Positions 14,195-48,705 of a DNA stretch of 64,000 nucleotides are shown here, in pieces. The position numbers were made by a program, and so were the translations under genes. The DNA lies in assembly GCA_017859785.1 (NCBI GenBank), contig JAFMMJ010000001.1:9618-73617 (forward strand), written 5' to 3'. The number at the start of each line of letters is the position of its first letter. The stretch's first letter is position 1. Origin of the DNA: Ilumatobacteraceae bacterium (GTDB lineage: Bacteria > Actinomycetota > Acidimicrobiia > Acidimicrobiales > Ilumatobacteraceae). The notes below the pieces were generated by a model that was not told the DNA's origin, searched no databases, and saw only the letters and a list, made by a program, of their open reading frames with translations.

Positions 14195-17044
14195 TCAGCT
14201 ACAGCCTGAGGTGCTCCCGCACGACGGGCAGGCGTGGCAGGAACCGGCGCGCACCATGTGCACACCGCACTGCATGCACATCGGCGCATCCGAGGGCCGG
14301 AGCGCGCCACGAGCCGGGGTGTTGTCCTCGACCGTCGGCTCGATGGTGCCCGCCTCGAGACCGGCGACCAGGTCGGCGGCCGACGGGACCGTCTTCGGGT
14401 CGGCAACCACCTCAGAGCCCATCGACGACTCGATGACCGACTCTTCAACACCGGGGAGGGTCGGCTGGGTGCGCTCCTCGACGGTGAAGATCCCGAGCTC
14501 GGCGCGCTCGTCGTAGGTCATGTACTCGAGGGCGAGACGACGGAACAGGTAGTCCATGATCGAACCCGCGAAACGCACGTCCGGATCGTCGGTCATGCCG
14601 GCCGGCTCGAACTTCATGTTCACGAACGCCTCGACATAGGCGCGGATCGGCACCCCGTACTGGAGGCCGTAGCTGATCGACTTCGCGAAGGCATCCATGA
14701 TGCCCGCGAGGGTCGAGCCCTGCTTCGAGACGGTGAGGAAGATCTCGCCCGGCTGGCCGTGCTCGTACTCGCCGACGGTGGCGAAGCCCTTGCAATCGGC
14801 GACCCGGAACTCGAAGGTCTTCGAGGTGCGGGTGCGCGGCAGCTTCTGGCGGACGGCGCGGTGCACGACCTTCTCGATCACCTGAGCGGCCATCTCGCCG
14901 GCCGCCTCGACAGCGTCATCGTCGGCGCTCTCCTTCTTGGCGGTGGAGAGCGGCTGAGCAACCTTGCAGTTGTCTCGGTAGATCGCCACCGCCTTCAGGC
15001 CGAGCTCCCAAGAGAGCTGATGCAGTGCCTCGACATCCTCGACCGAGGCCTCCTCGGGCATGTTCACCGTCTTGGAGATCGCACCGGAGAGGAACGGCTG
15101 CACCGCTCCCATCATCCGGACGTGACCCTCGTAGTGGATGGTGTTGTCACCCATCGAGCAGGCGAACACCGGAATGTGCTCGGCAGCGAGATGCGGGGCG
15201 CCGAGGATCGACTTGTTCTCGTCGATGTAGGCGATGATGTCGGCGACCTGCTGGTCGTCGTAGCCCATGCGGGTCAAGGCGCGCGGGATCGTCTGGTTGA
15301 CGATCGACATCGTTCCACCGCCAACCAGCTTCTTCATCTTGACGAGGCCGAGGTCGGGCTCGATGCCGGTGGTGTCGCAGTCCATCATGAGGCCGATGGT
15401 GCCGGTCGGCGCAAGCACCGACGCCTGGCTGTTGCGGACGCCATGGGCGTCGCCGTCGCGCACCGCCGCTTCCCAAGACTGCTGGCCAGCGGCAAGGAGA
15501 TCAGCGGGCACCGCGTCGGCGCCCTCGATCTCGTAGGAGGCGTCGCGATGCATGCCAAGAACTCGGAGCATGTGCTCGGCGTTCTCCTCGAAACCCTCGA
15601 AGGGTCCAAGACGGGCCGAGGTGCGGGCGCTCGTGGCGTAGGCGTGGCCGGTCATCAGCGAGGTGAGGGCAGCAGCCCAGGCGCGACCCTCAGGCGAGTC
15701 GTAGGCGTAGCCGAGGGCCATGAGCAGCGCGCCGAGGTTGGCGTAGCCGAGGCCGAGCTGACGGAACTTGCGGCTGTTCTCGCCGATCTTCTCCGTTGGG
15801 TAGTCGGCGCGGCCGACGAGGATCTCCTGAGCGGTGAAGACCACCTCGACGGTGTGGCGATAGGCGTCCACATCGAAGGTGCCGTCGGTGTCGAGGTACT
15901 TGAGGAGGTTGATCGACGCCAGGTTGCAGGCCGAGTTGTCGATGTGCATGTACTCCGAGCACGGGTTCGAGCCGTTGATGCGGTCGGTGTTCGCAGAGGT
16001 GTGCCAGCGGTTGATCGTGGTGTCGAACTGCAGACCCGGGTCGGCGCACTCCCAGGAGGCCTGAGCGATCTGACGCCACAGGTCGCGGGCGCGCACCGTC
16101 TTGATCACCGAGCCGTCGGTGACCGCGCGAAGACCCCAATCGGCGTCCTCGACCACGGCCTGCATGAACTCGTCGGACACGCGGACCGAGTTGTTGGCGT
16201 TCTGGTACTGGATCGAGAACGAGTCGGCGCCATCAAGGTCCATATCGAAGCCAGCGTCGCGGAGCACGCGCGCCTTGCGCTCCTCCTTGACCTTGCACCA
16301 CACGAACTCCTCGACATCGGGGTGGTCGACGTTGAGGATGACCATCTTGGCCGCGCGACGGGTCTTGCCACCCGACTTGATGGTGCCGGCCGAGGCGTCG
16401 GCACCGCGCATGAAGCTGACCGGACCAGAGGCCGTGCCGCCGCCCTCGAGGAGCTCGGCGCTAGAGCGAATCTTGGAGAGGTTGACGCCGGAGCCGGAGC
16501 CACCCTTGAAGATGACGCCCTCCTCGCGGTACCAGTTGAGGATCGAGTTCATCGTGTCGTCGACCGACAGGATGAAGCAGGCGCTCGCCTGCTGGCGCAC
16601 GCCGGGCACGCCGATGTTGAACCAGACCGGGCTGTTGAAGGCCGCGCGCTGGGTGACGAGGATGTACTTCAGTTCGTCGGAGAAGGCGGTGGCCTCATCC
16701 TCGTCGGCGAAGTAGCCGCCCTCACGACCCCACGTGGTGATCGTGTTGACGACACGGTCGATGACCTGACGGACAGAGGTCTCGCGCTCGGGGGTTCCGA
16801 GGGTGCCGCGGAAGTACTTCTGGGAGACGATGTTGGTGGCGTTCACCGACCACGAGACGGGGAACTCGACATCGAGCTGCTCGAAGGCGACCGAGCCGTC
16901 CTTCCAGTTGGTGATGCGAGCGTCGCGACGCTCCCAGACCACCTCGTCGTAGGGGTTCACCCCAGGCGAACTGAACAGCCTCTTGATGCCGATGGTTCCG
17001 TCCGGTGGGGCGAGGGCTGCGGTCTTCTCGGGTGCCATCGACAT
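14195..17044 (-). CDS. nrdJ: adenosylcobalamin-dependent ribonucleoside-diphosphate reductase (class II)
   Basis: ORF 14195..17209 trimmed to ATG 17044 (AAGGAGA RBS). Class II RNR blocks run throughout, and there is a C-terminal Cys-rich tail (CMQCG...CHACPSCG). Confidence 0.92.
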   Translation of the reverse strand: MSMAPEKTAALAPPDGTIGIKRLFSSPGVNPYDEVVWERRDARITNWKDGSVAFEQLDVEFPVSWSVNATNIVSQKYFRGTLGTPERETSVRQVIDRVVNTITTWGREGGYFADEDEATAFSDELKYILVTQRAAFNSPVWFNIGVPGVRQQASACFILSVDDTMNSILNWYREEGVIFKGGSGSGVNLSKIRSSAELLEGGGTASGPVSFMRGADASAGTIKSGGKTRRAAKMVILNVDHPDVEEFVWCKVKEERKARVLRDAGFDMDLDGADSFSIQYQNANNSVRVSDEFMQAVVEDADWGLRAVTDGSVIKTVRARDLWRQIAQASWECADPGLQFDTTINRWHTSANTDRINGSNPCSEYMHIDNSACNLASINLLKYLDTDGTFDVDAYRHTVEVVFTAQEILVGRADYPTEKIGENSRKFRQLGLGYANLGALLMALGYAYDSPEGRAWAAALTSLMTGHAYATSARTSARLGPFEGFEENAEHMLRVLGMHRDASYEIEGADAVPADLLAAGQQSWEAAVRDGDAHGVRNSQASVLAPTGTIGLMMDCDTTGIEPDLGLVKMKKLVGGGTMSIVNQTIPRALTRMGYDDQQVADIIAYIDENKSILGAPHLAAEHIPVFACSMGDNTIHYEGHVRMMGAVQPFLSGAISKTVNMPEEASVEDVEALHQLSWELGLKAVAIYRDNCKVAQPLSTAKKESADDDAVEAAGEMAAQVIEKVVHRAVRQKLPRTRTSKTFEFRVADCKGFATVGEYEHGQPGEIFLTVSKQGSTLAGIMDAFAKSISYGLQYGVPIRAYVEAFVNMKFEPAGMTDDPDVRFAGSIMDYLFRRLALEYMTYDERAELGIFTVEERTQPTLPGVEESVIESSMGSEVVADPKTVPSAADLVAGLEAGTIEPTVEDNTPARGALRPSDAPMCMQCGVHMVRAGSCHACPSCGSTSGCS

Positions 17045-17203
17045 GTCTTCTCTCCTTGTGATCATTGTCGGTCGAGCGCTGCTCGGACCTGCGGGCGTCC
17101 CGCTCTGTTGTGAGGTCGGACCGACTCCCGTCGGTGCCGTTGTGCGCCCGCGGGGAGCGTTGTGCCTGAGGGCCGGTCTTCCCTGCCGCCGGACCCTGCC
17201 CGG

Positions 17204-17219
17204 ACACAAGATGTGGTGT
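17204..17219. promoter_or_regulatory. NrdR box 1
   Basis: ACACAAGATGTGGTGT fits the NrdR-box consensus acaCwAtATaTwGtgt. It lies about 160 nt upstream of the nrdJ start. Confidence 0.7.
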
Positions 17220-17245
17220 TTCGACCGCTATGCCCCACCCCGGAA

Positions 17246-17261
17246 CCACAACGAGTTGTGT
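17246..17261. promoter_or_regulatory. NrdR box 2
   Basis: CCACAACGAGTTGTGT (dyad ACAAC..GTTGT). Its centre is 42 bp from the centre of box 1, about four helical turns. Confidence 0.65.
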
Positions 17262-17496
17262 CTCCCGGACAGGACTGGCAATTACACCACTGTAGTTACG
17301 ACCCTGTCAACCACCCGCCGAAGAAATCCTGAAACCCATCCCCGCGAGCCCGACGGCGCCCCCGACGATGGACCGCGGTGCCGTGTCACAGGTCCAGAAC
17401 CTCTCGGCTCCAAACCCCTGGAGCGTGATCCAGGGGCTCGTTCCTCCGTGCACGACACCGCGGTCGATCGGTCTGCTCACCCTAGGAACGCCCCCC

Positions 17497-17578
17497 TGTG
17501 GATCGGAAGTGGACAAGTGAAAAAGGGGTGTGGAGAACCAAGAAATCCCGTGGAAAACCCATCAAGATTTGTGGACGG
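17497..17578. promoter_or_regulatory. array of five DnaA-box-like 9-mers, all in the same orientation
   Basis: The five 9-mers are TGTGGATCG (17497), AGTGGACAA (17508), TGTGGAGAA (17529), CGTGGAAAA (17549) and TGTGGACGG (17570). Each matches 7-8 of 9 positions of TGTGGA(T/C)AA. Spacings are 11, 21, 20 and 21 bp. The stretch is locally A-rich. Confidence 0.5.
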
Positions 17579-17662
17579 CCGGAGAAGCGTCGTCTCTCGT
17601 CGATGATCGCAGCTGTTCGTTGGTCTCAACCATCGACCACGAACCTGGAGCATGATCGTGGG

Positions 17663-18388
17663 GTGGACCACCGAGGAGCACCGGACGGACTCGACCTCGA
17701 GCAACTCGACGACGACGAACTCGTCCGCGCGATCGACCTCGCCTACGGCCCCGCGATACGCGACGGTGCCACCGACAGCGATGCTCCACCCGTTGAAATG
17801 TCGATGGTGACAAGCCTCGACGGCAGCGTCGCTGTCGCCGGGGGTTCGCGCGCCCTCTCCAGCCGTGTCGACCTCGCCGTGTTGCTTCGACTACGTCACC
17901 ATGCCTGCGTCACCCTCGTCGGCGCGGGAACGGTGCGTTCCGAGGACTACGCGGTACCGACCGATCCGACCGTTCGCTTCGCCGTCGTCACCGGACAAGG
18001 CGACCTCGACTGGGAGTCGGCGCTCTGGCGATCGGGCCACGCGACAGCGGTCGCACCGGAGAGCGTCGCCATCCCTGACCATGTTCCAGTAATCCGAGCC
18101 GGACACAACGACATCGACATCACTACCGTCGTTCAGCGAGTGAGCGAGCGATTCAGGTCCGGCACCGCCCCCATCCATCTCGAGGGAGGGCCGAAGCTGA
18201 ACGCGGCCCTCCACGATCACGACCTGATCGATGCGATCAACCTGACCATCTCACCGACGCTCGTCGCCGGACCGAGCCAGCGAGCCCTCGACGGCCCGAC
18301 CGAACGGCTCCGCCACTTCCGACGACGGCACGTCCTGATCGCCGGAGATCACCTGCTCACGCGGTGGGAGCGGGATCGGACTTGCTGA
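17663..18388 (+). CDS. RibD C-terminal-domain / dihydrofolate-reductase-like pyrimidine reductase family protein
   Basis: Family blocks MVTSLDGSVAV, TLVGAGTVRSEDY and IHLEGGPKLNAAL. ORF 17498..18388 trimmed to GTG 17663 (GGAG 12 nt upstream), because the Lys-rich first ~35 codons coincide with the DnaA-box array. ATG 17603 is an alternative start. Confidence 0.6.
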   Translation: MDHRGAPDGLDLEQLDDDELVRAIDLAYGPAIRDGATDSDAPPVEMSMVTSLDGSVAVAGGSRALSSRVDLAVLLRLRHHACVTLVGAGTVRSEDYAVPTDPTVRFAVVTGQGDLDWESALWRSGHATAVAPESVAIPDHVPVIRAGHNDIDITTVVQRVSERFRSGTAPIHLEGGPKLNAALHDHDLIDAINLTISPTLVAGPSQRALDGPTERLRHFRRRHVLIAGDHLLTRWERDRTC

Positions 18389-18824
18389 GCAGCTCGATCT
18401 CGCGGTGGAAATCAGCCGCCGCGTCGAAGTCCTTGTAGACCGAGGCGAACCTCAGATAGGCGACGTCGTCGAGAAGCCGGAGACGGTCGAGCACAGCCAC
18501 ACCGACCTGCGCGGTGGAAACCACCGTTCCGATCGCACGCATCTCCTCGTCGACACCGTCGACCAATGCTTCGATAGCGGCCTCGTCGAGGGATCTGCCC
18601 TTGGACGCGGCTGACACGCCAGCGATGACTTTCGCCCGATCGAAGCCCTCACGAGTGCCGTCGGACTTGACGACGAGGAGCGGCACCTCGTCCATCCGCT
18701 CAAAGGTGGTGAAGCGGTAACCGCAGTCAAGACACTCTCGGCGACGGCGGACAGCATTGCCGTCCTCGGCCAAACGCGAGTCGACGACCTTCGTGTCATC
18801 GGTACGACAGGCGGGACAATGCAC
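18357..18824 (-). CDS. nrdR: transcriptional repressor NrdR
   Basis: ORF 18357..18983 trimmed to GTG 18824 (VHCPACRTDDTKVVDSR...). It has a zinc ribbon (CPAC...CLDCG) and an ATP-cone domain. Confidence 0.92.
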   Translation of the reverse strand: MHCPACRTDDTKVVDSRLAEDGNAVRRRRECLDCGYRFTTFERMDEVPLLVVKSDGTREGFDRAKVIAGVSAASKGRSLDEAAIEALVDGVDEEMRAIGTVVSTAQVGVAVLDRLRLLDDVAYLRFASVYKDFDAAADFHREIELLSKSDPAPTA

Positions 18825-18865
18825 GCCTGAGAGGGTAATCGGGGGCCACCGTGGCCCCCGGGCAC

Positions 18866-19222
18866 TCAGGGAAGGCGAACGACCTGACCCGCCTGAATGC
18901 TCGGGCCGCCATTCAGCAGAACGAGCCGGTCGAGATACCGGTGAAGATCGACCGAGCCGTGGTGCTCGACGGCGATCGCCCACAACGTGTCACCGGGAAG
19001 GGCGGTGACCGTCGTGGGGGCGTTGGACGGCGCGGTATCGGCGGCGGAGGCAGTCACGCCGCCGATACCGGCCAGTGCTTCATTCACCGCGAGACCGGCG
19101 GTGACGACCATCAGAGCGAGCACCGTGCCGACCACCAGACGCCGACGGCGGTAGACCGCCTCGCTCGGGCGGGGGGCGACGGTGCGGATGGCGGCGGGGT
19201 TGTGGAGTGCGATGGTGCTCAT
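18866..19222 (-). CDS. LysM-domain membrane protein (ChiZ/Rv2719c-like)
   Basis: Trimmed to ATG 19222 (AGGAG RBS). One TM segment and a C-terminal LysM domain (GDTLWAIAVEHHG...LNGGPSIQAGQVVRLP). It occupies the conserved position between lexA and nrdR. Confidence 0.75.
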   Translation of the reverse strand: MSTIALHNPAAIRTVAPRPSEAVYRRRRLVVGTVLALMVVTAGLAVNEALAGIGGVTASAADTAPSNAPTTVTALPGDTLWAIAVEHHGSVDLHRYLDRLVLLNGGPSIQAGQVVRLP

Positions 19223-47906: not shown

Positions 47907-48665
47907 TCAGGGCTGGAGACTGCCCGCGAGGCGCTTCGACACGCGCGCAGCGGTGCGCACCACGGCACGGGTGATCGCGTCACGTCGGTCCGGATCGGGG
48001 AACCGATAGGCCGGGCCGTGAACATGGATCGCGGCGATCACCGATCCCGCCGGATTGAAGATCGGCGCCGCCACCGAGTTGATGCCCTCGGCCATCTCCT
48101 CCATCGTCCAGGCGAAACCGTCGCGGCGGACCGACTCGAGGCGCCGAATGATCGCAACCGGGTCGGTGACGGAGCGCTCACACCAGGGTTCGAACGGGTC
48201 GGCGAGAGCCGCCGCCTGCTCCTCGTCAGAGGAGAACGCCAGCAGAACCAACCCTGAGGAGACCACGTGAGCGTCGACGGTTTCTCCGGTCCAGTCGCGC
48301 AACTGCACCTCTTGGCCAGCGTTCACTTGATCGAGGTAGTAGACCCCGCGGCCCTCCAAAACACCGATCCCCGCGTCCTCTTCGAGCAGGTCCACGAGGT
48401 CCTGGAGATGCGGACGGCTGATCGAGACGATGTTGCGACCCGGTGATGCGGCGGCGCTCAGCTCGATGAGGGTCTCCCCCAGTCCGTAGGAGCTGGAGTT
48501 CTCGCTCTGCTCGACCGCGCCGAGATCGACGAGGGTCGACAGCAGGCGCGCCACCGTGCTCTTCGGGAGGTCGGTCCGCTCGGCGATCTCGGACACGCCA
48601 GCCGGTCCGGTGGACAGGCTGCGCAGCACCGAGAAGGCGCGGTTGACTGACTGGACTCCTGACAT
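47907..48665 (-). CDS. IclR-family transcriptional regulator
   Basis: Trimmed to ATG 48665 (GGGAGG RBS). N-terminal HTH (VQSVNRAFSVLRSLS...GVSEIAERTDLPKSTVARLL) and a C-terminal IclR effector domain. Confidence 0.88.
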   Translation of the reverse strand: MSGVQSVNRAFSVLRSLSTGPAGVSEIAERTDLPKSTVARLLSTLVDLGAVEQSENSSSYGLGETLIELSAAASPGRNIVSISRPHLQDLVDLLEEDAGIGVLEGRGVYYLDQVNAGQEVQLRDWTGETVDAHVVSSGLVLLAFSSDEEQAAALADPFEPWCERSVTDPVAIIRRLESVRRDGFAWTMEEMAEGINSVAAPIFNPAGSVIAAIHVHGPAYRFPDPDRRDAITRAVVRTAARVSKRLAGSLQP

Positions 48666-48684
48666 GTTCCTCCCTGATCTCCCA

Positions 48685-48705
48685 CTGTTCCACAATGTGG
48701 AACAG
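48685..48705. promoter_or_regulatory. perfect 21-bp palindrome upstream of iclR (candidate IclR operator)
   Basis: CTGTTCCAC-AAT-GTGGAACAG lies 20 nt upstream of the iclR ATG. Confidence 0.6.

What the first reader, a model, noticed from the sequence alone, without database searches (positions are those of the whole stretch)
17497..17578. Helically phased array of five same-orientation DnaA-box-like motifs upstream of the nrdJ promoter
An unusually A-rich patch in otherwise GC-rich DNA carries five 9-mers: TGTGGATCG, AGTGGACAA, TGTGGAGAA, CGTGGAAAA and TGTGGACGG. All are on one strand. Each matches 7-8 of 9 positions of the reverse DnaA box TGTGGA(T/C)AA; the actinobacterial box is TTGTCCACA. 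Their start-to-start spacings are 11, 21, 20 and 21 bp, integral helical turns as needed for a DnaA filament. No dnaA or dnaN gene and no AT-rich unwinding element is nearby, so this is not oriC. In E. coli, DnaA boxes regulate nrdAB, and non-origin DnaA-box clusters (datA, DARS, the B. subtilis DBCs) titrate or recharge DnaA. The array lies about 240-320 bp upstream of the NrdR boxes and about 85 bp upstream of my preferred start for the RibD-like gene. The ORF track translates it as an implausible Lys/Arg-rich N-terminus.
Basis: partly seen in the sequence, partly recalled or inferred. Interest (0 to 1): 0.6.

Follow-up and report, generated by a model that had tools for sequence, protein, structure and literature searches.

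The report
DnaA-box array controlling a nrdJ promoter
A conserved row of binding sites for the replication initiator DnaA sits directly against a promoter that reads toward the B12-dependent ribonucleotide reductase gene in a freshwater Acidimicrobiia bacterium, which most likely ties DNA-precursor supply to replication start, a known type of circuit seen here in a new lineage and enzyme class.

Summary
Five same-strand GTGGA-core 9-mers start at 17497, 17508, 17529, 17549 and 17570, with spacings of 11, 21, 20 and 21 bp.

**More than chance.** A matrix trained only on this genus's oriC and dnaA promoters ranks the array third among box clusters in the genome. oriC ranks second. Twenty simulated genomes never reached four hits in 110 bp.

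**Conserved.** Boxes 1-3 are present in all 19 genus genomes that hold that part of the region. The pair of boxes 1 and 2, separated by 2 bp, recurs across the family.

**New here.** Exactly 12 nt from box 1 lies a conserved TANNNT -10 hexamer on the minus strand, at 17479-17484. This defines a distal promoter, P2, reading toward nrdJ, with the box pair in the -35 position. The dnaB helicase promoter has the same box-N12-(-10) layout. These are the only two such sites in the genome.

**Rejected readings.** The Lys/Arg-rich ORF over the array is not coding; the RibD_C-like gene starts leaderless at GTG 17663. The array is not an origin; oriC, with DnaA-trios, lies between dnaA and dnaN on another contig.

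**Verdict.** This is a DnaA operator array at a ribonucleotide reductase promoter, a new member of a known kind. DnaA binding and the sign of regulation are inferred, not shown.

The parts
17497..17505 (+). DnaA box 1, TGTGGATCG. It is the promoter-proximal half of the box pair. It spans about -33 to -25 of the minus-strand promoter P2.
   Evidence: Sequence. TGTGGA(T/A)CG is present in all 19 genus genomes that hold this part. The family-level counterpart is (A/T)(A/T)TCCACA on the nrdJ strand.
17508..17516 (+). DnaA box 2, AGTGGACAA, 8 of 9 to the actinobacterial box. It is the distal half of the box pair, separated from box 1 by 2 bp, and is centred near -40 of P2.
   Evidence: AGTGGACAA is invariant in the genus. 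It scored 10.6 bits with the first oriC-trained matrix. A 2-3 bp gap is the preferred DnaA binding unit in E. coli ChIP-seq (PMC11317965).
17529..17537 (+). DnaA box 3, TGTGGAGAA.
   Evidence: A GTGGA core lies 20-21 bp from box 2 in every genus genome. It scored 12.0 bits.
17549..17557 (+). DnaA box 4, CGTGGAAAA.
   Evidence: It scored 11.6 bits. Most genus members carry TGGGGAC at the same offset. The same variant, CGTGGAAAT, occurs in the oriC box run of the genus.
17570..17578 (+). DnaA box 5, TGTGGACGG.
   Evidence: It scored 9.2 bits. It is present at +73 only in the G000/G010/G014 subclade. Other genus members have a box at +63/64, which forms a second pair with box 4.
17479..17484 (-). 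The -10 hexamer TAGGGT of the distal promoter P2, which reads toward nrdJ. It lies exactly 12 nt from box 1.
   Evidence: Across the genus the hexamer varies (TAGGGT, TAGTGT, TAATCT, TAAGGT, TAGGAT) but always fits TANNNT, while the 12-nt spacer varies. In named family genomes, 13 of 14 box pairs of the TCCACTTCC(A/T)(A/T)TCCACA type have TANNNT at exactly 12 nt. No transcription start was mapped.
17281..17310 (-). Proximal nrdJ promoter P1: -35 TTGACA (17305-17310), an 18-nt spacer, and -10 TGTAAT (17281-17286).
   Evidence: Sequence. This is the best-conserved block of the intergenic region in the genus. The consensus scan did not list it, because TGTAAT lacks A at position 2.
17204..17261 (.). 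Two NrdR boxes, ACACAAGATGTGGTGT and CCACAACGAGTTGTGT, downstream of P1 in the nrdJ leader.
   Evidence: Sequence. They are conserved in the genus alignment. The nrdR gene lies at 18357-18983.
14195..17065 (-). nrdJ, class II B12-dependent ribonucleotide reductase. The probable start is ATG 17065.
   Evidence: Pfam hits Ribonuc_red_lgC, Ribonuc_red_2_N and TSCPD. Alignment with relatives begins just after this ATG.
17651..18388 (+). RibD_C-like (pyrimidine reductase family) gene with a leaderless-type promoter: -10 CATGAT (17651-17656), 6 nt, then start GTG 17663.
   Evidence: Pfam RibD_C, E = 1.5e-19; NCBIfam pyrimidine reductase family, below cut-off. CA(N3)T, 6 nt and GTG are conserved in the genus. 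The frame is closed within or after the array in 15 of the 18 genus genomes in which box 1 could be located.

Best explanation
The array is a DnaA operator in the shared control region of nrdJ and a divergent RibD_C-like gene.

**Core and position.** Its core is a pair of DnaA boxes, box 2 and box 1, separated by 2 bp. The pair sits 12 nt upstream of the -10 hexamer of a distal, minus-strand promoter (P2). P2 reads through the NrdR-controlled proximal promoter P1 into nrdJ. The pair therefore occupies the -25 to -44 region, where a -35 element would normally be. Three more boxes lie at two-turn intervals on the same helical face. They would add cooperative DnaA binding.

**Proposed function.** When active DnaA accumulates, its occupancy of the array changes P2 output. 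This would couple dNTP synthesis by the class II reductase to replication initiation. NrdR at P1 would separately report the dNTP/ATP balance.

**Shown:**
- the motifs, their genomic rarity and their identity with the organism's oriC box type;
- conservation of the boxes, of the 12-nt spacing and of the -10 hexamer;
- the same layout at the dnaB promoter.

**Inferred:**
- that DnaA is the binding protein;
- that P2 fires;
- the sign of regulation (activation by replacing the -35 contact, repression by occlusion, or both depending on DnaA level, as at E. coli nrdAB).
For: 1. **Box identity.** Unbiased 6-mer counts in 18 genus dnaA-dnaN spacers and dnaA upstream regions put TGTGGA/TCCACA at 48 observed against 1.2 expected, and 53 against 1.35. 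A matrix built only from those regions scores four of the five array boxes above 8 bits. It ranks the array third in the genome, with oriC second. Simulated genomes never reach 4 hits.
2. **Same variants in oriC.** The oriC of the genus contains the same box variants in a same-strand run: TGTGGATCA, AGTGGATGA, TGTGGTCAA, CGTGGAAAT, spaced 12, 12 and 11 bp.
3. **Conservation in the genus.** Synteny holds in all 20 genus genomes with the region. Boxes 1-3 are present in all 19 that hold that part.
4. **Conservation beyond the genus.** In 80 named Acidimicrobiia genomes, box density is 3.4 per kb upstream of nrdJ against 0.7 per kb inside it. Orientation is biased 153 to 59. Twenty loci carry the pair with a 2-bp gap, against 0 in control sequence.
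5. **Promoter P2.** TANNNT lies exactly 12 nt after the pair in the genus and in 13 of 14 family cases, while the spacer sequence varies.
6. **Same layout at dnaB.** Same-orientation boxes, then CCCACA, N12 and GA(G/A)AGT, occur at the dnaB helicase promoter. This holds in 22 of the 23 genus genomes; the remaining one has GAGCAT at that place. nrdJ and dnaB are the only two matches to 'box pair + N12 + [TG]ANNNT' in the genome.
7. **Canonical DnaA.** The organism's DnaA scores 416 bits to B. subtilis DnaA, and its domain IV carries GGRDHTTVIHA.
8. **Precedent.** DnaA controls nrdAB in E. coli, is bound upstream of nrdD, and prefers pairs of boxes 2-3 bp apart (PMC8203912; PMC11317965).
Against:
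- P2 rests on conservation alone. It lies about 200 bp upstream of a strong, conserved P1, so its contribution to nrdJ mRNA is unknown.
- Box 1 is weak: 7 of 9 matches, and 8.1 bits with the first matrix.
- Spacings of 20-21 bp do not give the contiguous 11-bp arrays seen in oriC filaments.
- Boxes 4 and 5 differ between subclades.
- The densest box cluster in the genome (contig C13) sits upstream of an unknown RNA with no evident link to replication. The motif therefore does not mark replication genes only.
- The array could act on the divergent RibD_C-like gene instead of nrdJ, or on both.
Confidence: 0.7

Rival explanations
1. The array is a DnaA reservoir or DnaA-state control site, like datA, DARS or the B. 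subtilis DnaA-box clusters. Its main role would be to titrate or recycle DnaA and so set initiation timing. Its position next to nrdJ would be incidental.
For: - It is one of only four dense clusters in the genome.
- The largest cluster (C13) is not next to a replication gene, which suggests that some clusters have non-promoter roles.
- Five co-oriented boxes are more than a simple operator needs.
Against: - The invariant 12-nt register between box 1 and a conserved -10 hexamer, across genus and family, argues for promoter coupling.
- The same register occurs at dnaB.
- The association with nrdJ persists across many genera even though the rest of the array changes.
- Titration and regulation are not mutually exclusive.
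Confidence: 0.12
2. A different sequence-specific protein, for example an OmpR/PhoB-type response regulator that reads direct repeats at 11-bp phasing, binds the GTGGA repeats. The likeness to DnaA boxes would then be coincidental.
For: - Direct repeats 11 bp apart that overlap a -35 region are typical of winged-helix response regulators (general knowledge).
- Several boxes deviate at the first position (A, C or G in place of T).
- No binding data exist.
Against: - The same 9-mer family is the most enriched word at oriC and the dnaA promoter of the genus.
- The matrix from those sites finds oriC, nrdJ, dnaB and C13 as the top clusters.
- The target set (nrdJ, dnaB, dnaA) matches known DnaA regulons.
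- I know of no actinobacterial regulator with a TGTGGAYAA site other than DnaA.
Confidence: 0.08
3. The array acts chiefly on the divergent RibD_C-like gene, a DHFR-fold reductase, and not on nrdJ.
For: In most genus members the last box ends about 27 nt upstream of the -10 of the leaderless RibD_C-like promoter. In the C13 unit, an array in the same orientation lies upstream of a + strand promoter.
Against: - The distance from the array to the RibD_C promoter is not conserved: about 27 nt in most genomes, 72 nt in the G000 clade. The distance to the minus-strand -10 is invariant.
- Most of the 22 family loci with three or more co-oriented boxes upstream of nrdJ showed no divergent RibD_C gene within the fetched flank; only L082 and L129 did.
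Confidence: 0.06
4. The array is a second or cryptic replication origin, or it is part of a real coding N-terminus of the 296-aa ORF.
For: It has five co-oriented boxes in a locally A+T-richer patch, and ORF 17498-18388 is open across it.
Against: - The real origin lies between dnaA and dnaN on contig C76. It has boxes in both orientations and the module ATCCACA, GC cluster, CTACTATCGCTACTG (DnaA-trios).
- At the array there is no trio run and no AT-rich unwinding element; the lowest-G+C 40-mer, at 42.5%, is the array itself.
- There is no GC-skew switch nearby.
- The frame is closed in 15 of the 18 genus genomes in which box 1 could be located, and box spacing varies by 1 nt between genomes.
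Confidence: 0.02

Closest known systems
E. coli nrdAB promoter, with its pair of DnaA boxes and a DnaA-ATP site, and the DnaA-bound nrdDG upstream region
   Same: - DnaA boxes in a ribonucleotide reductase control region that also carries NrdR boxes.
- A pair of same-orientation boxes 2-3 bp apart is the binding unit.
- The logic couples dNTP supply to initiation (PMC8203912; PMC11317965).
   Different: - The enzyme here is a class II (B12-dependent) reductase in Acidimicrobiia.
- There are five boxes, not two or three.
- The box pair sits at a fixed 12 nt from the -10 of a separate distal promoter about 200 bp upstream of the NrdR-controlled one.
- No Fis or IciA sites can be assessed, and there are no experimental data.
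DnaA regulons of Caulobacter crescentus and Bacillus subtilis (predicted boxes at dnaB, dnaQ and RNR genes; eight stable DnaA-binding regions in B. subtilis)
   Same: - A small set of dense box clusters outside oriC.
- The clusters lie at replication and nucleotide genes, including dnaB and RNR (PMC2533591 is listed).
   Different: - The lineage differs.
- A strict box-N12-(-10) register is shared by nrdJ and dnaB here.
- One cluster lies upstream of an unknown RNA.
datA, DARS1/2 and Streptomyces non-origin DnaA-box clusters
   Same: All are clusters of DnaA boxes away from oriC that could bind several DnaA molecules.
   Different: Those loci act on DnaA availability or nucleotide state and are not locked to a promoter -10. 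No IHF-type site or DARS-like box arrangement was examined here.
Bacterial core origin (DnaA boxes, GC cluster, DnaA-trios)
   Same: Both have two co-oriented DnaA boxes followed by a G+C-rich stretch.
   Different: At the array the G+C stretch is followed by a single TANNNT hexamer, not a run of trinucleotide repeats, and no AT-rich region follows. The true module of this type lies next to dnaN.

Membership tests
DnaA-regulated promoter / non-origin DnaA-box cluster | Several sites match the DnaA-box consensus as defined at the organism's own oriC and dnaA promoter. | tested here: met
   A matrix trained only on genus oriC and dnaA-promoter sites scores four of five boxes above 8 bits; the fifth (box 1) scored 8.1 bits with the first matrix. 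The cluster ranks third in the genome, next to oriC.
DnaA-regulated promoter / non-origin DnaA-box cluster | A pair of same-orientation boxes separated by 2-3 bp, the preferred DnaA binding unit. | tested here: met
   Boxes 1 and 2 are separated by 2 bp. This holds throughout the genus and recurs in 20 of 80 family loci, against 0 in controls. The criterion comes from PMC11317965.
DnaA-regulated promoter / non-origin DnaA-box cluster | The boxes are positioned at or next to a promoter. | tested here: inconclusive
   A conserved TANNNT lies exactly 12 nt from box 1, and dnaB has the same register.
DnaA-regulated promoter / non-origin DnaA-box cluster | DnaA binds the site, and transcription changes with DnaA level or nucleotide state. 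| not testable with these tools
   This needs EMSA or footprinting, DAP-seq or reporter assays. The organism's DnaA has a canonical domain IV.
Chromosomal origin (oriC) | DnaA boxes together with DnaA-trios and an AT-rich unwinding element, usually next to dnaA or dnaN, and a GC-skew switch. | tested here: not met
   dnaA and dnaN, with the box + GC + CTACTATCGCTACTG module, are on contig C76. At the array there is no trio run, no 40-mer below 42.5% G+C and no skew switch.
datA / DARS / DnaA-box-cluster titration sites | The site affects DnaA availability or nucleotide state; accessory IHF or Fis sites are present. | not testable with these tools
Response-regulator direct-repeat operator (OmpR/PhoB type) | Direct repeats at 10-11 bp that match the consensus of a known regulator. 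| tested here: not met
   The 11-bp phasing is present. The repeat, however, is the oriC box of this genus and not a known response-regulator motif. This comparison rests on my own knowledge of published consensus sites.
Protein-coding sequence (N-terminal extension of the RibD_C-like protein) | The reading frame and peptide are conserved in homologues. | tested here: not met
   The frame is closed within or after the array in 15 of the 18 genus genomes in which box 1 could be located. There are 1-nt spacing differences between boxes. Homologues align only from residue ~42 of the GTG-17663 protein.

The most novel reading that the evidence does not exclude
Ilumatobacteraceae-like Acidimicrobiia may have a distinct class of DnaA-dependent promoters. 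In these, a pair of DnaA boxes fixed 12 nt upstream of the -10 hexamer would replace the -35 element, so that DnaA acts as the promoter-recognition partner of RNA polymerase for replication-supply genes (nrdJ P2 and dnaB). The same initiator would also hold the genome's largest box array, in front of an undescribed ~370-nt structured RNA. That RNA could be a DnaA-controlled regulatory RNA, or the array there could be a datA-like locus.
Probability: 0.25. Interest if true: 0.6.

Novelty: new member of a known kind. Interest (0 to 1): 0.42.

Why it matters
DnaA control of ribonucleotide reductase is established for class Ia (and is likely for class III) in E. coli. It has only been proposed elsewhere. 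This finding shows that the link is wired into a class II, B12-dependent reductase in an abundant, uncultured freshwater actinobacterial lineage.

It also gives a precise, testable architecture: a box pair, 12 nt, then the -10 hexamer, shared with dnaB. A short list of box clusters (oriC, dnaA, nrdJ, dnaB and one RNA locus) outlines a compact DnaA regulon for organisms that cannot yet be grown.

In addition, it corrects the annotation of the neighbouring RibD_C-like gene, which has a leaderless start at 17663.

Tried and rejected
- **Rfam, 16500-18500, both strands, E up to 1:** no match, so no known riboswitch or sRNA explains the region.
- **Small ORF between P2 and P1:** stops occur in all frames in several genomes.
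- **DnaA-trio reading of the TAG.. element left of box 1:** rejected. Only one or two trio-like units are present, 8 nt from the box. The variation pattern keeps T-A-N3-T on the minus strand, which is the signature of a -10 hexamer.
- **Consensus promoter scan:** it did not list P1 or P2, because it requires a good -35 and A at position 2 of the -10.
- **ORF-based intergenic mask:** of little use in this high-G+C genome, since 98% of bases are covered by some ORF. The residual non-ORF DNA has 0.67 hits per kb.
- **The C13 RNA:** no Rfam match (best E = 0.79). Folding of its 3' domain gives three hairpins but only two covarying pairs. I left it unresolved.
- **First strict genome scan for the box-N12-(-10) module:** it found nothing because the thresholds were too high. 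The relaxed scan found exactly nrdJ and dnaB.

Full report
**Observation**

The five 9-mers are at the stated coordinates, all on the + strand:
- TGTGGATCG, 17497
- AGTGGACAA, 17508
- TGTGGAGAA, 17529
- CGTGGAAAA, 17549
- TGTGGACGG, 17570

The start-to-start spacings are 11, 21, 20 and 21 bp. The patch has 49% G+C in a genome of 66.5%.

The pattern GTGGA-N6-GTGGA-N16-GTGGA occurs once in the window and in none of 100 dinucleotide-preserving shuffles. In the whole 1.96-Mb assembly (114 contigs, 98.8% complete), only two places have four or more same-strand GTGGA within 90 bp. One is this array. The other is an array on contig C13 with almost the same spacing plan.

**Context**

- nrdJ (class II reductase) lies on the minus strand, with a probable ATG at 17065.
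- A RibD_C-like gene lies on the plus strand.
- nrdR lies at 18357-18983 on the minus strand.

This synteny is kept in all 20 genus genomes that contain the region. Record titles of the closest NrdJ loci place the organism among freshwater Acidimicrobiia of the Ilumatobacteraceae type. Rfam finds nothing in 16500-18500.

**Are these DnaA boxes of this organism?**

dnaA and dnaN lie on contig C76. I collected the dnaA-dnaN spacers and dnaA upstream regions of 18 genus genomes.

An unbiased 6-mer count gives TGTGGA/TCCACA 48 observed against 1.2 expected in the spacers. In the dnaA promoters it is 53 against 1.35. The spacer ends with ATCCACA, a short G+C cluster and CTACTATCGCTACTG. This is the box plus DnaA-trio module of a bacterial core origin, so the true oriC is there. 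It also holds a same-strand run, TGTGGATCA / AGTGGATGA / TGTGGTCAA / CGTGGAAAT, spaced 12, 12 and 11 bp. These are the same box variants as in the nrdJ array.

An 11-column matrix trained only on ten representative oriC and dnaA-promoter sequences (111 sites) gives 939 hits of at least 8 bits in the genome, or 0.48 per kb. Ranking 110-bp windows gives:

| Rank | Locus | Hits |
|---|---|---|
| 1 | C13:16335-16410 | 6, all one strand |
| 2 | oriC | 5 |
| 3 | nrdJ array | 4 (box 1 falls just under the threshold) |
| 4 | C68:3280-3316 | 3, strong |

Twenty order-3 Markov genomes never exceeded 3 hits on any strand. Residual non-ORF DNA has 0.67 hits per kb.

The DnaA protein is canonical. It scores 416 bits to B. 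subtilis DnaA, and domain IV carries RQIAMY...GGRDHTTVIHA.

**Conservation**

Box spacing in the genus:
- Boxes 1-3 occur in all 19 genus genomes that hold that part of the region, at 0, +11 and +31/32.
- The string CCCTGTGGA(T/A)CG(A/G)AAGTGGACAAC is nearly invariant.
- Most members carry TGGGGAC/T boxes at +52/53 and +63/64, which makes a second pair.
- The G000/G010/G014 subclade has CGTGGAAAA at +52 and TGTGGACGG at +73.

BLAST of the 501-bp intergenic query against the genus recovers two conserved islands. One is the array. The other is a block at 17278-17326.

In 80 named species-level genomes:
- Box density is 3.4 per kb in the 800 bp upstream of nrdJ, against 0.7 per kb inside nrdJ.
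- Orientation is biased 153 to 59.
- 26 loci have three or more hits within 110 bp, up to seven, usually all co-oriented.

Several order-level genomes also show co-oriented clusters.

**What the comparison adds: a promoter locked to the array**

Twelve nucleotides to the left of box 1 lies ACCCTA (17479-17484). Its reverse complement, TAGGGT, varies among genus members (TAGTGT, TAATCT, TAAGGT, TAGGAT). It always keeps T-A-N3-T, while the 12-nt spacer varies freely.

In the named family genomes, the pair TCCACTTCC(A/T)(A/T)TCCACA is followed at exactly 12 nt by TANNNT in 13 of 14 cases. The hexamers seen include TACCGT, TATCGT, TACATT, TATGTT, TAGGTT, TATGCT and TATGAT. The fourteenth case is offset by one nucleotide. 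The pair itself is found in 20 loci and in none of the control sequences.

This is the signature of an actinobacterial -10 element on the minus strand. It implies a distal promoter, P2, with a start near 17472 that reads toward nrdJ. Box 1 then covers about -33 to -25, and box 2 about -44 to -36. No good -35 hexamer is present.

About 200 bp downstream lies a strong conventional promoter, P1: TTGACA (17305-17310), 18 nt, TGTAAT (17281-17286). P1 is followed by the two NrdR boxes (17204-17261). All of these are conserved.

The distance from the array to the RibD_C-like promoter is not conserved. It is about 27 nt in most genus members and 72 nt in the G000 clade. The array is therefore anchored on the nrdJ side.

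**A second promoter of the same design**

The fourth-ranked cluster lies between rplI and dnaB, the replicative helicase (TIGR00665, 566 bits). In all 23 genus genomes, same-orientation boxes spaced about 12 bp end in CCCACA. A -10-like hexamer follows 12 nt later: GA(G/A)AGT in 22 genomes and GAGCAT in one. In most of them the ATG is 8-9 nt further on.

A genome-wide scan for 'two boxes 11-12 bp apart + N12 + [TG]ANNNT' returns only nrdJ P2 and dnaB. Together with the three conserved boxes at the dnaA promoter, the clusters mark dnaA, oriC, dnaB and nrdJ. This is the gene set expected of a DnaA regulon. PMC8203912 covers nrdAB in E. coli, proposed RNR control in B. subtilis and Caulobacter, and dnaB in Caulobacter. 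PMC11317965 reports ChIP-seq peaks at nrdA and nrdD, and a preference for pairs of boxes 2-3 bp apart.

**Mechanism**

Most likely, DnaA binds the pair at the -35 position of P2, with the three further boxes on the same helical face adding cooperativity. The outer boxes are not contiguous 11-bp neighbours, so this is not a continuous oriC-type filament. DnaA occupancy would set the output of a second nrdJ promoter that NrdR does not control at initiation.

The sign cannot be read from sequence:
- The absence of a -35 and a box centred near -40 fit activation.
- Overlap with the -35 region fits repression.
- E. coli nrdAB shows both, depending on DnaA-ATP level.

DnaA binding, P2 activity and the sign of regulation are all inferences.

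**Rejected or less likely readings**

- **Coding.** The 296-aa ORF from 17498 is open in G000. The frame is closed within or after the array in 15 of the 18 genus genomes in which box 1 could be located, including the nearest relative. Box spacing also differs by 1 nt between genomes. The first in-frame start after the stop is the GTG that follows CA(N3)T by 6 nt, which is a leaderless layout. The gene therefore starts at GTG 17663.
- **Origin.** There are no DnaA-trios, no AT-rich element and no skew switch, and the real origin is elsewhere.
- **Titration site.** This is possible as a second role. The fixed promoter register argues for regulation.
- **Another regulator.** This is not excluded without binding data. 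It is unparsimonious, given the identity with the oriC boxes.

**Relation to earlier notes of this scan**

Several AI notes describe co-oriented DnaA-box arrays before nrdJ or nrdR in Chloroflexota, alphaproteobacteria, Bacteroidota and other actinobacteria. I did not test them. They are leads, not evidence. If they are right, this case is one of a widespread pattern, which lowers its surprise value.

**Verdict**

This is a real, conserved regulatory element. It is best filed as a DnaA operator array at a ribonucleotide reductase promoter, a new member of a known kind. Its useful new detail is the register of box pair, N12 and -10, shared with dnaB. Interest is moderate.

Noticed in passing
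L002 (G000 contig C13) 16337-16860: This is the densest DnaA-box cluster in the genome: seven co-oriented boxes, spaced roughly 11, 12, 11, 21, 20 and 11 bp. It lies just upstream of a conserved promoter (TTGACC, 17 nt, CAGAGT). The promoter drives a ~370-nt RNA with a variable purine-rich middle and a highly conserved, structured 3' domain ending in a long hairpin. Rfam has no match (best E = 0.79). The unit is flanked by an agmatinase gene in five genus genomes, by an MFS transporter gene in G002, and in G003 by no recognisable gene within about 500 bp (a UGSC-family ORF lies further on). It therefore looks autonomous. It could be an unknown sRNA or riboswitch-like leader, or the array could be a datA-like locus.
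   Followed up: partly
L004 (G000 contig C68) 3263-3326: Co-oriented DnaA boxes (TGTGGGAAG, TGTGGATTA, TGTGGACAA) lie directly upstream of the dnaB helicase gene. The proximal box sits 12 nt from a GAGAGT -10-like hexamer. The boxes are conserved in all 23 genus genomes.
   Followed up: yes
L003 (G000 contig C76) 5560-5660 and 7095-7337: The chromosomal origin lies in the dnaA-dnaN spacer. It has boxes in both orientations and, next to dnaN, the module AATCCACA, ACAC, CTACTATCGCTACTG (DnaA-trio type). The dnaA promoter carries three conserved boxes, with genus consensus TTTTCCACA ga TGTGGATAA aca TGTGGGTA.
   Followed up: partly
L002 (contig C13) 16150-16280, minus strand: A short leader ORF, MRNATTAARIIIIR, with four consecutive Ile codons, is followed by a G+C-rich hairpin upstream of a citramalate/isopropylmalate synthase-like gene. 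It looks like an Ile-sensing transcription attenuator. The block is conserved in all genus genomes.
   Followed up: no
window 17277-17300: A block of about 20 nt, GCAATTACACCA(C/T)TGTAGTTA, covers the -10 and spacer of nrdJ promoter P1. It is conserved far more than a promoter spacer needs. It resembles a degenerate third NrdR box (ACACCA.TGTAGTT).
   Followed up: no
window 17386-17398 and 17443-17465: Two further conserved blocks lie between P2 and P1: CACAGGTCCAGAA and GTTCCTCCGTGCACGACACCGCG. No conserved ORF covers them, and their function is unknown. They could be another operator or a leader RNA element.
   Followed up: partly
window 17651-17665: The RibD_C-like (pyrimidine reductase family) gene appears to be leaderless: CATGAT, 6 nt, then GTG 17663. 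The annotated 296-aa ORF overextends it by 55 codons.
   Followed up: yes
window 48608-48695: Three matches to the DnaA-box matrix, in mixed orientation, fall within 88 bp. This is one of five three-hit clusters in the genome that may be chance. I did not examine it.
   Followed up: no
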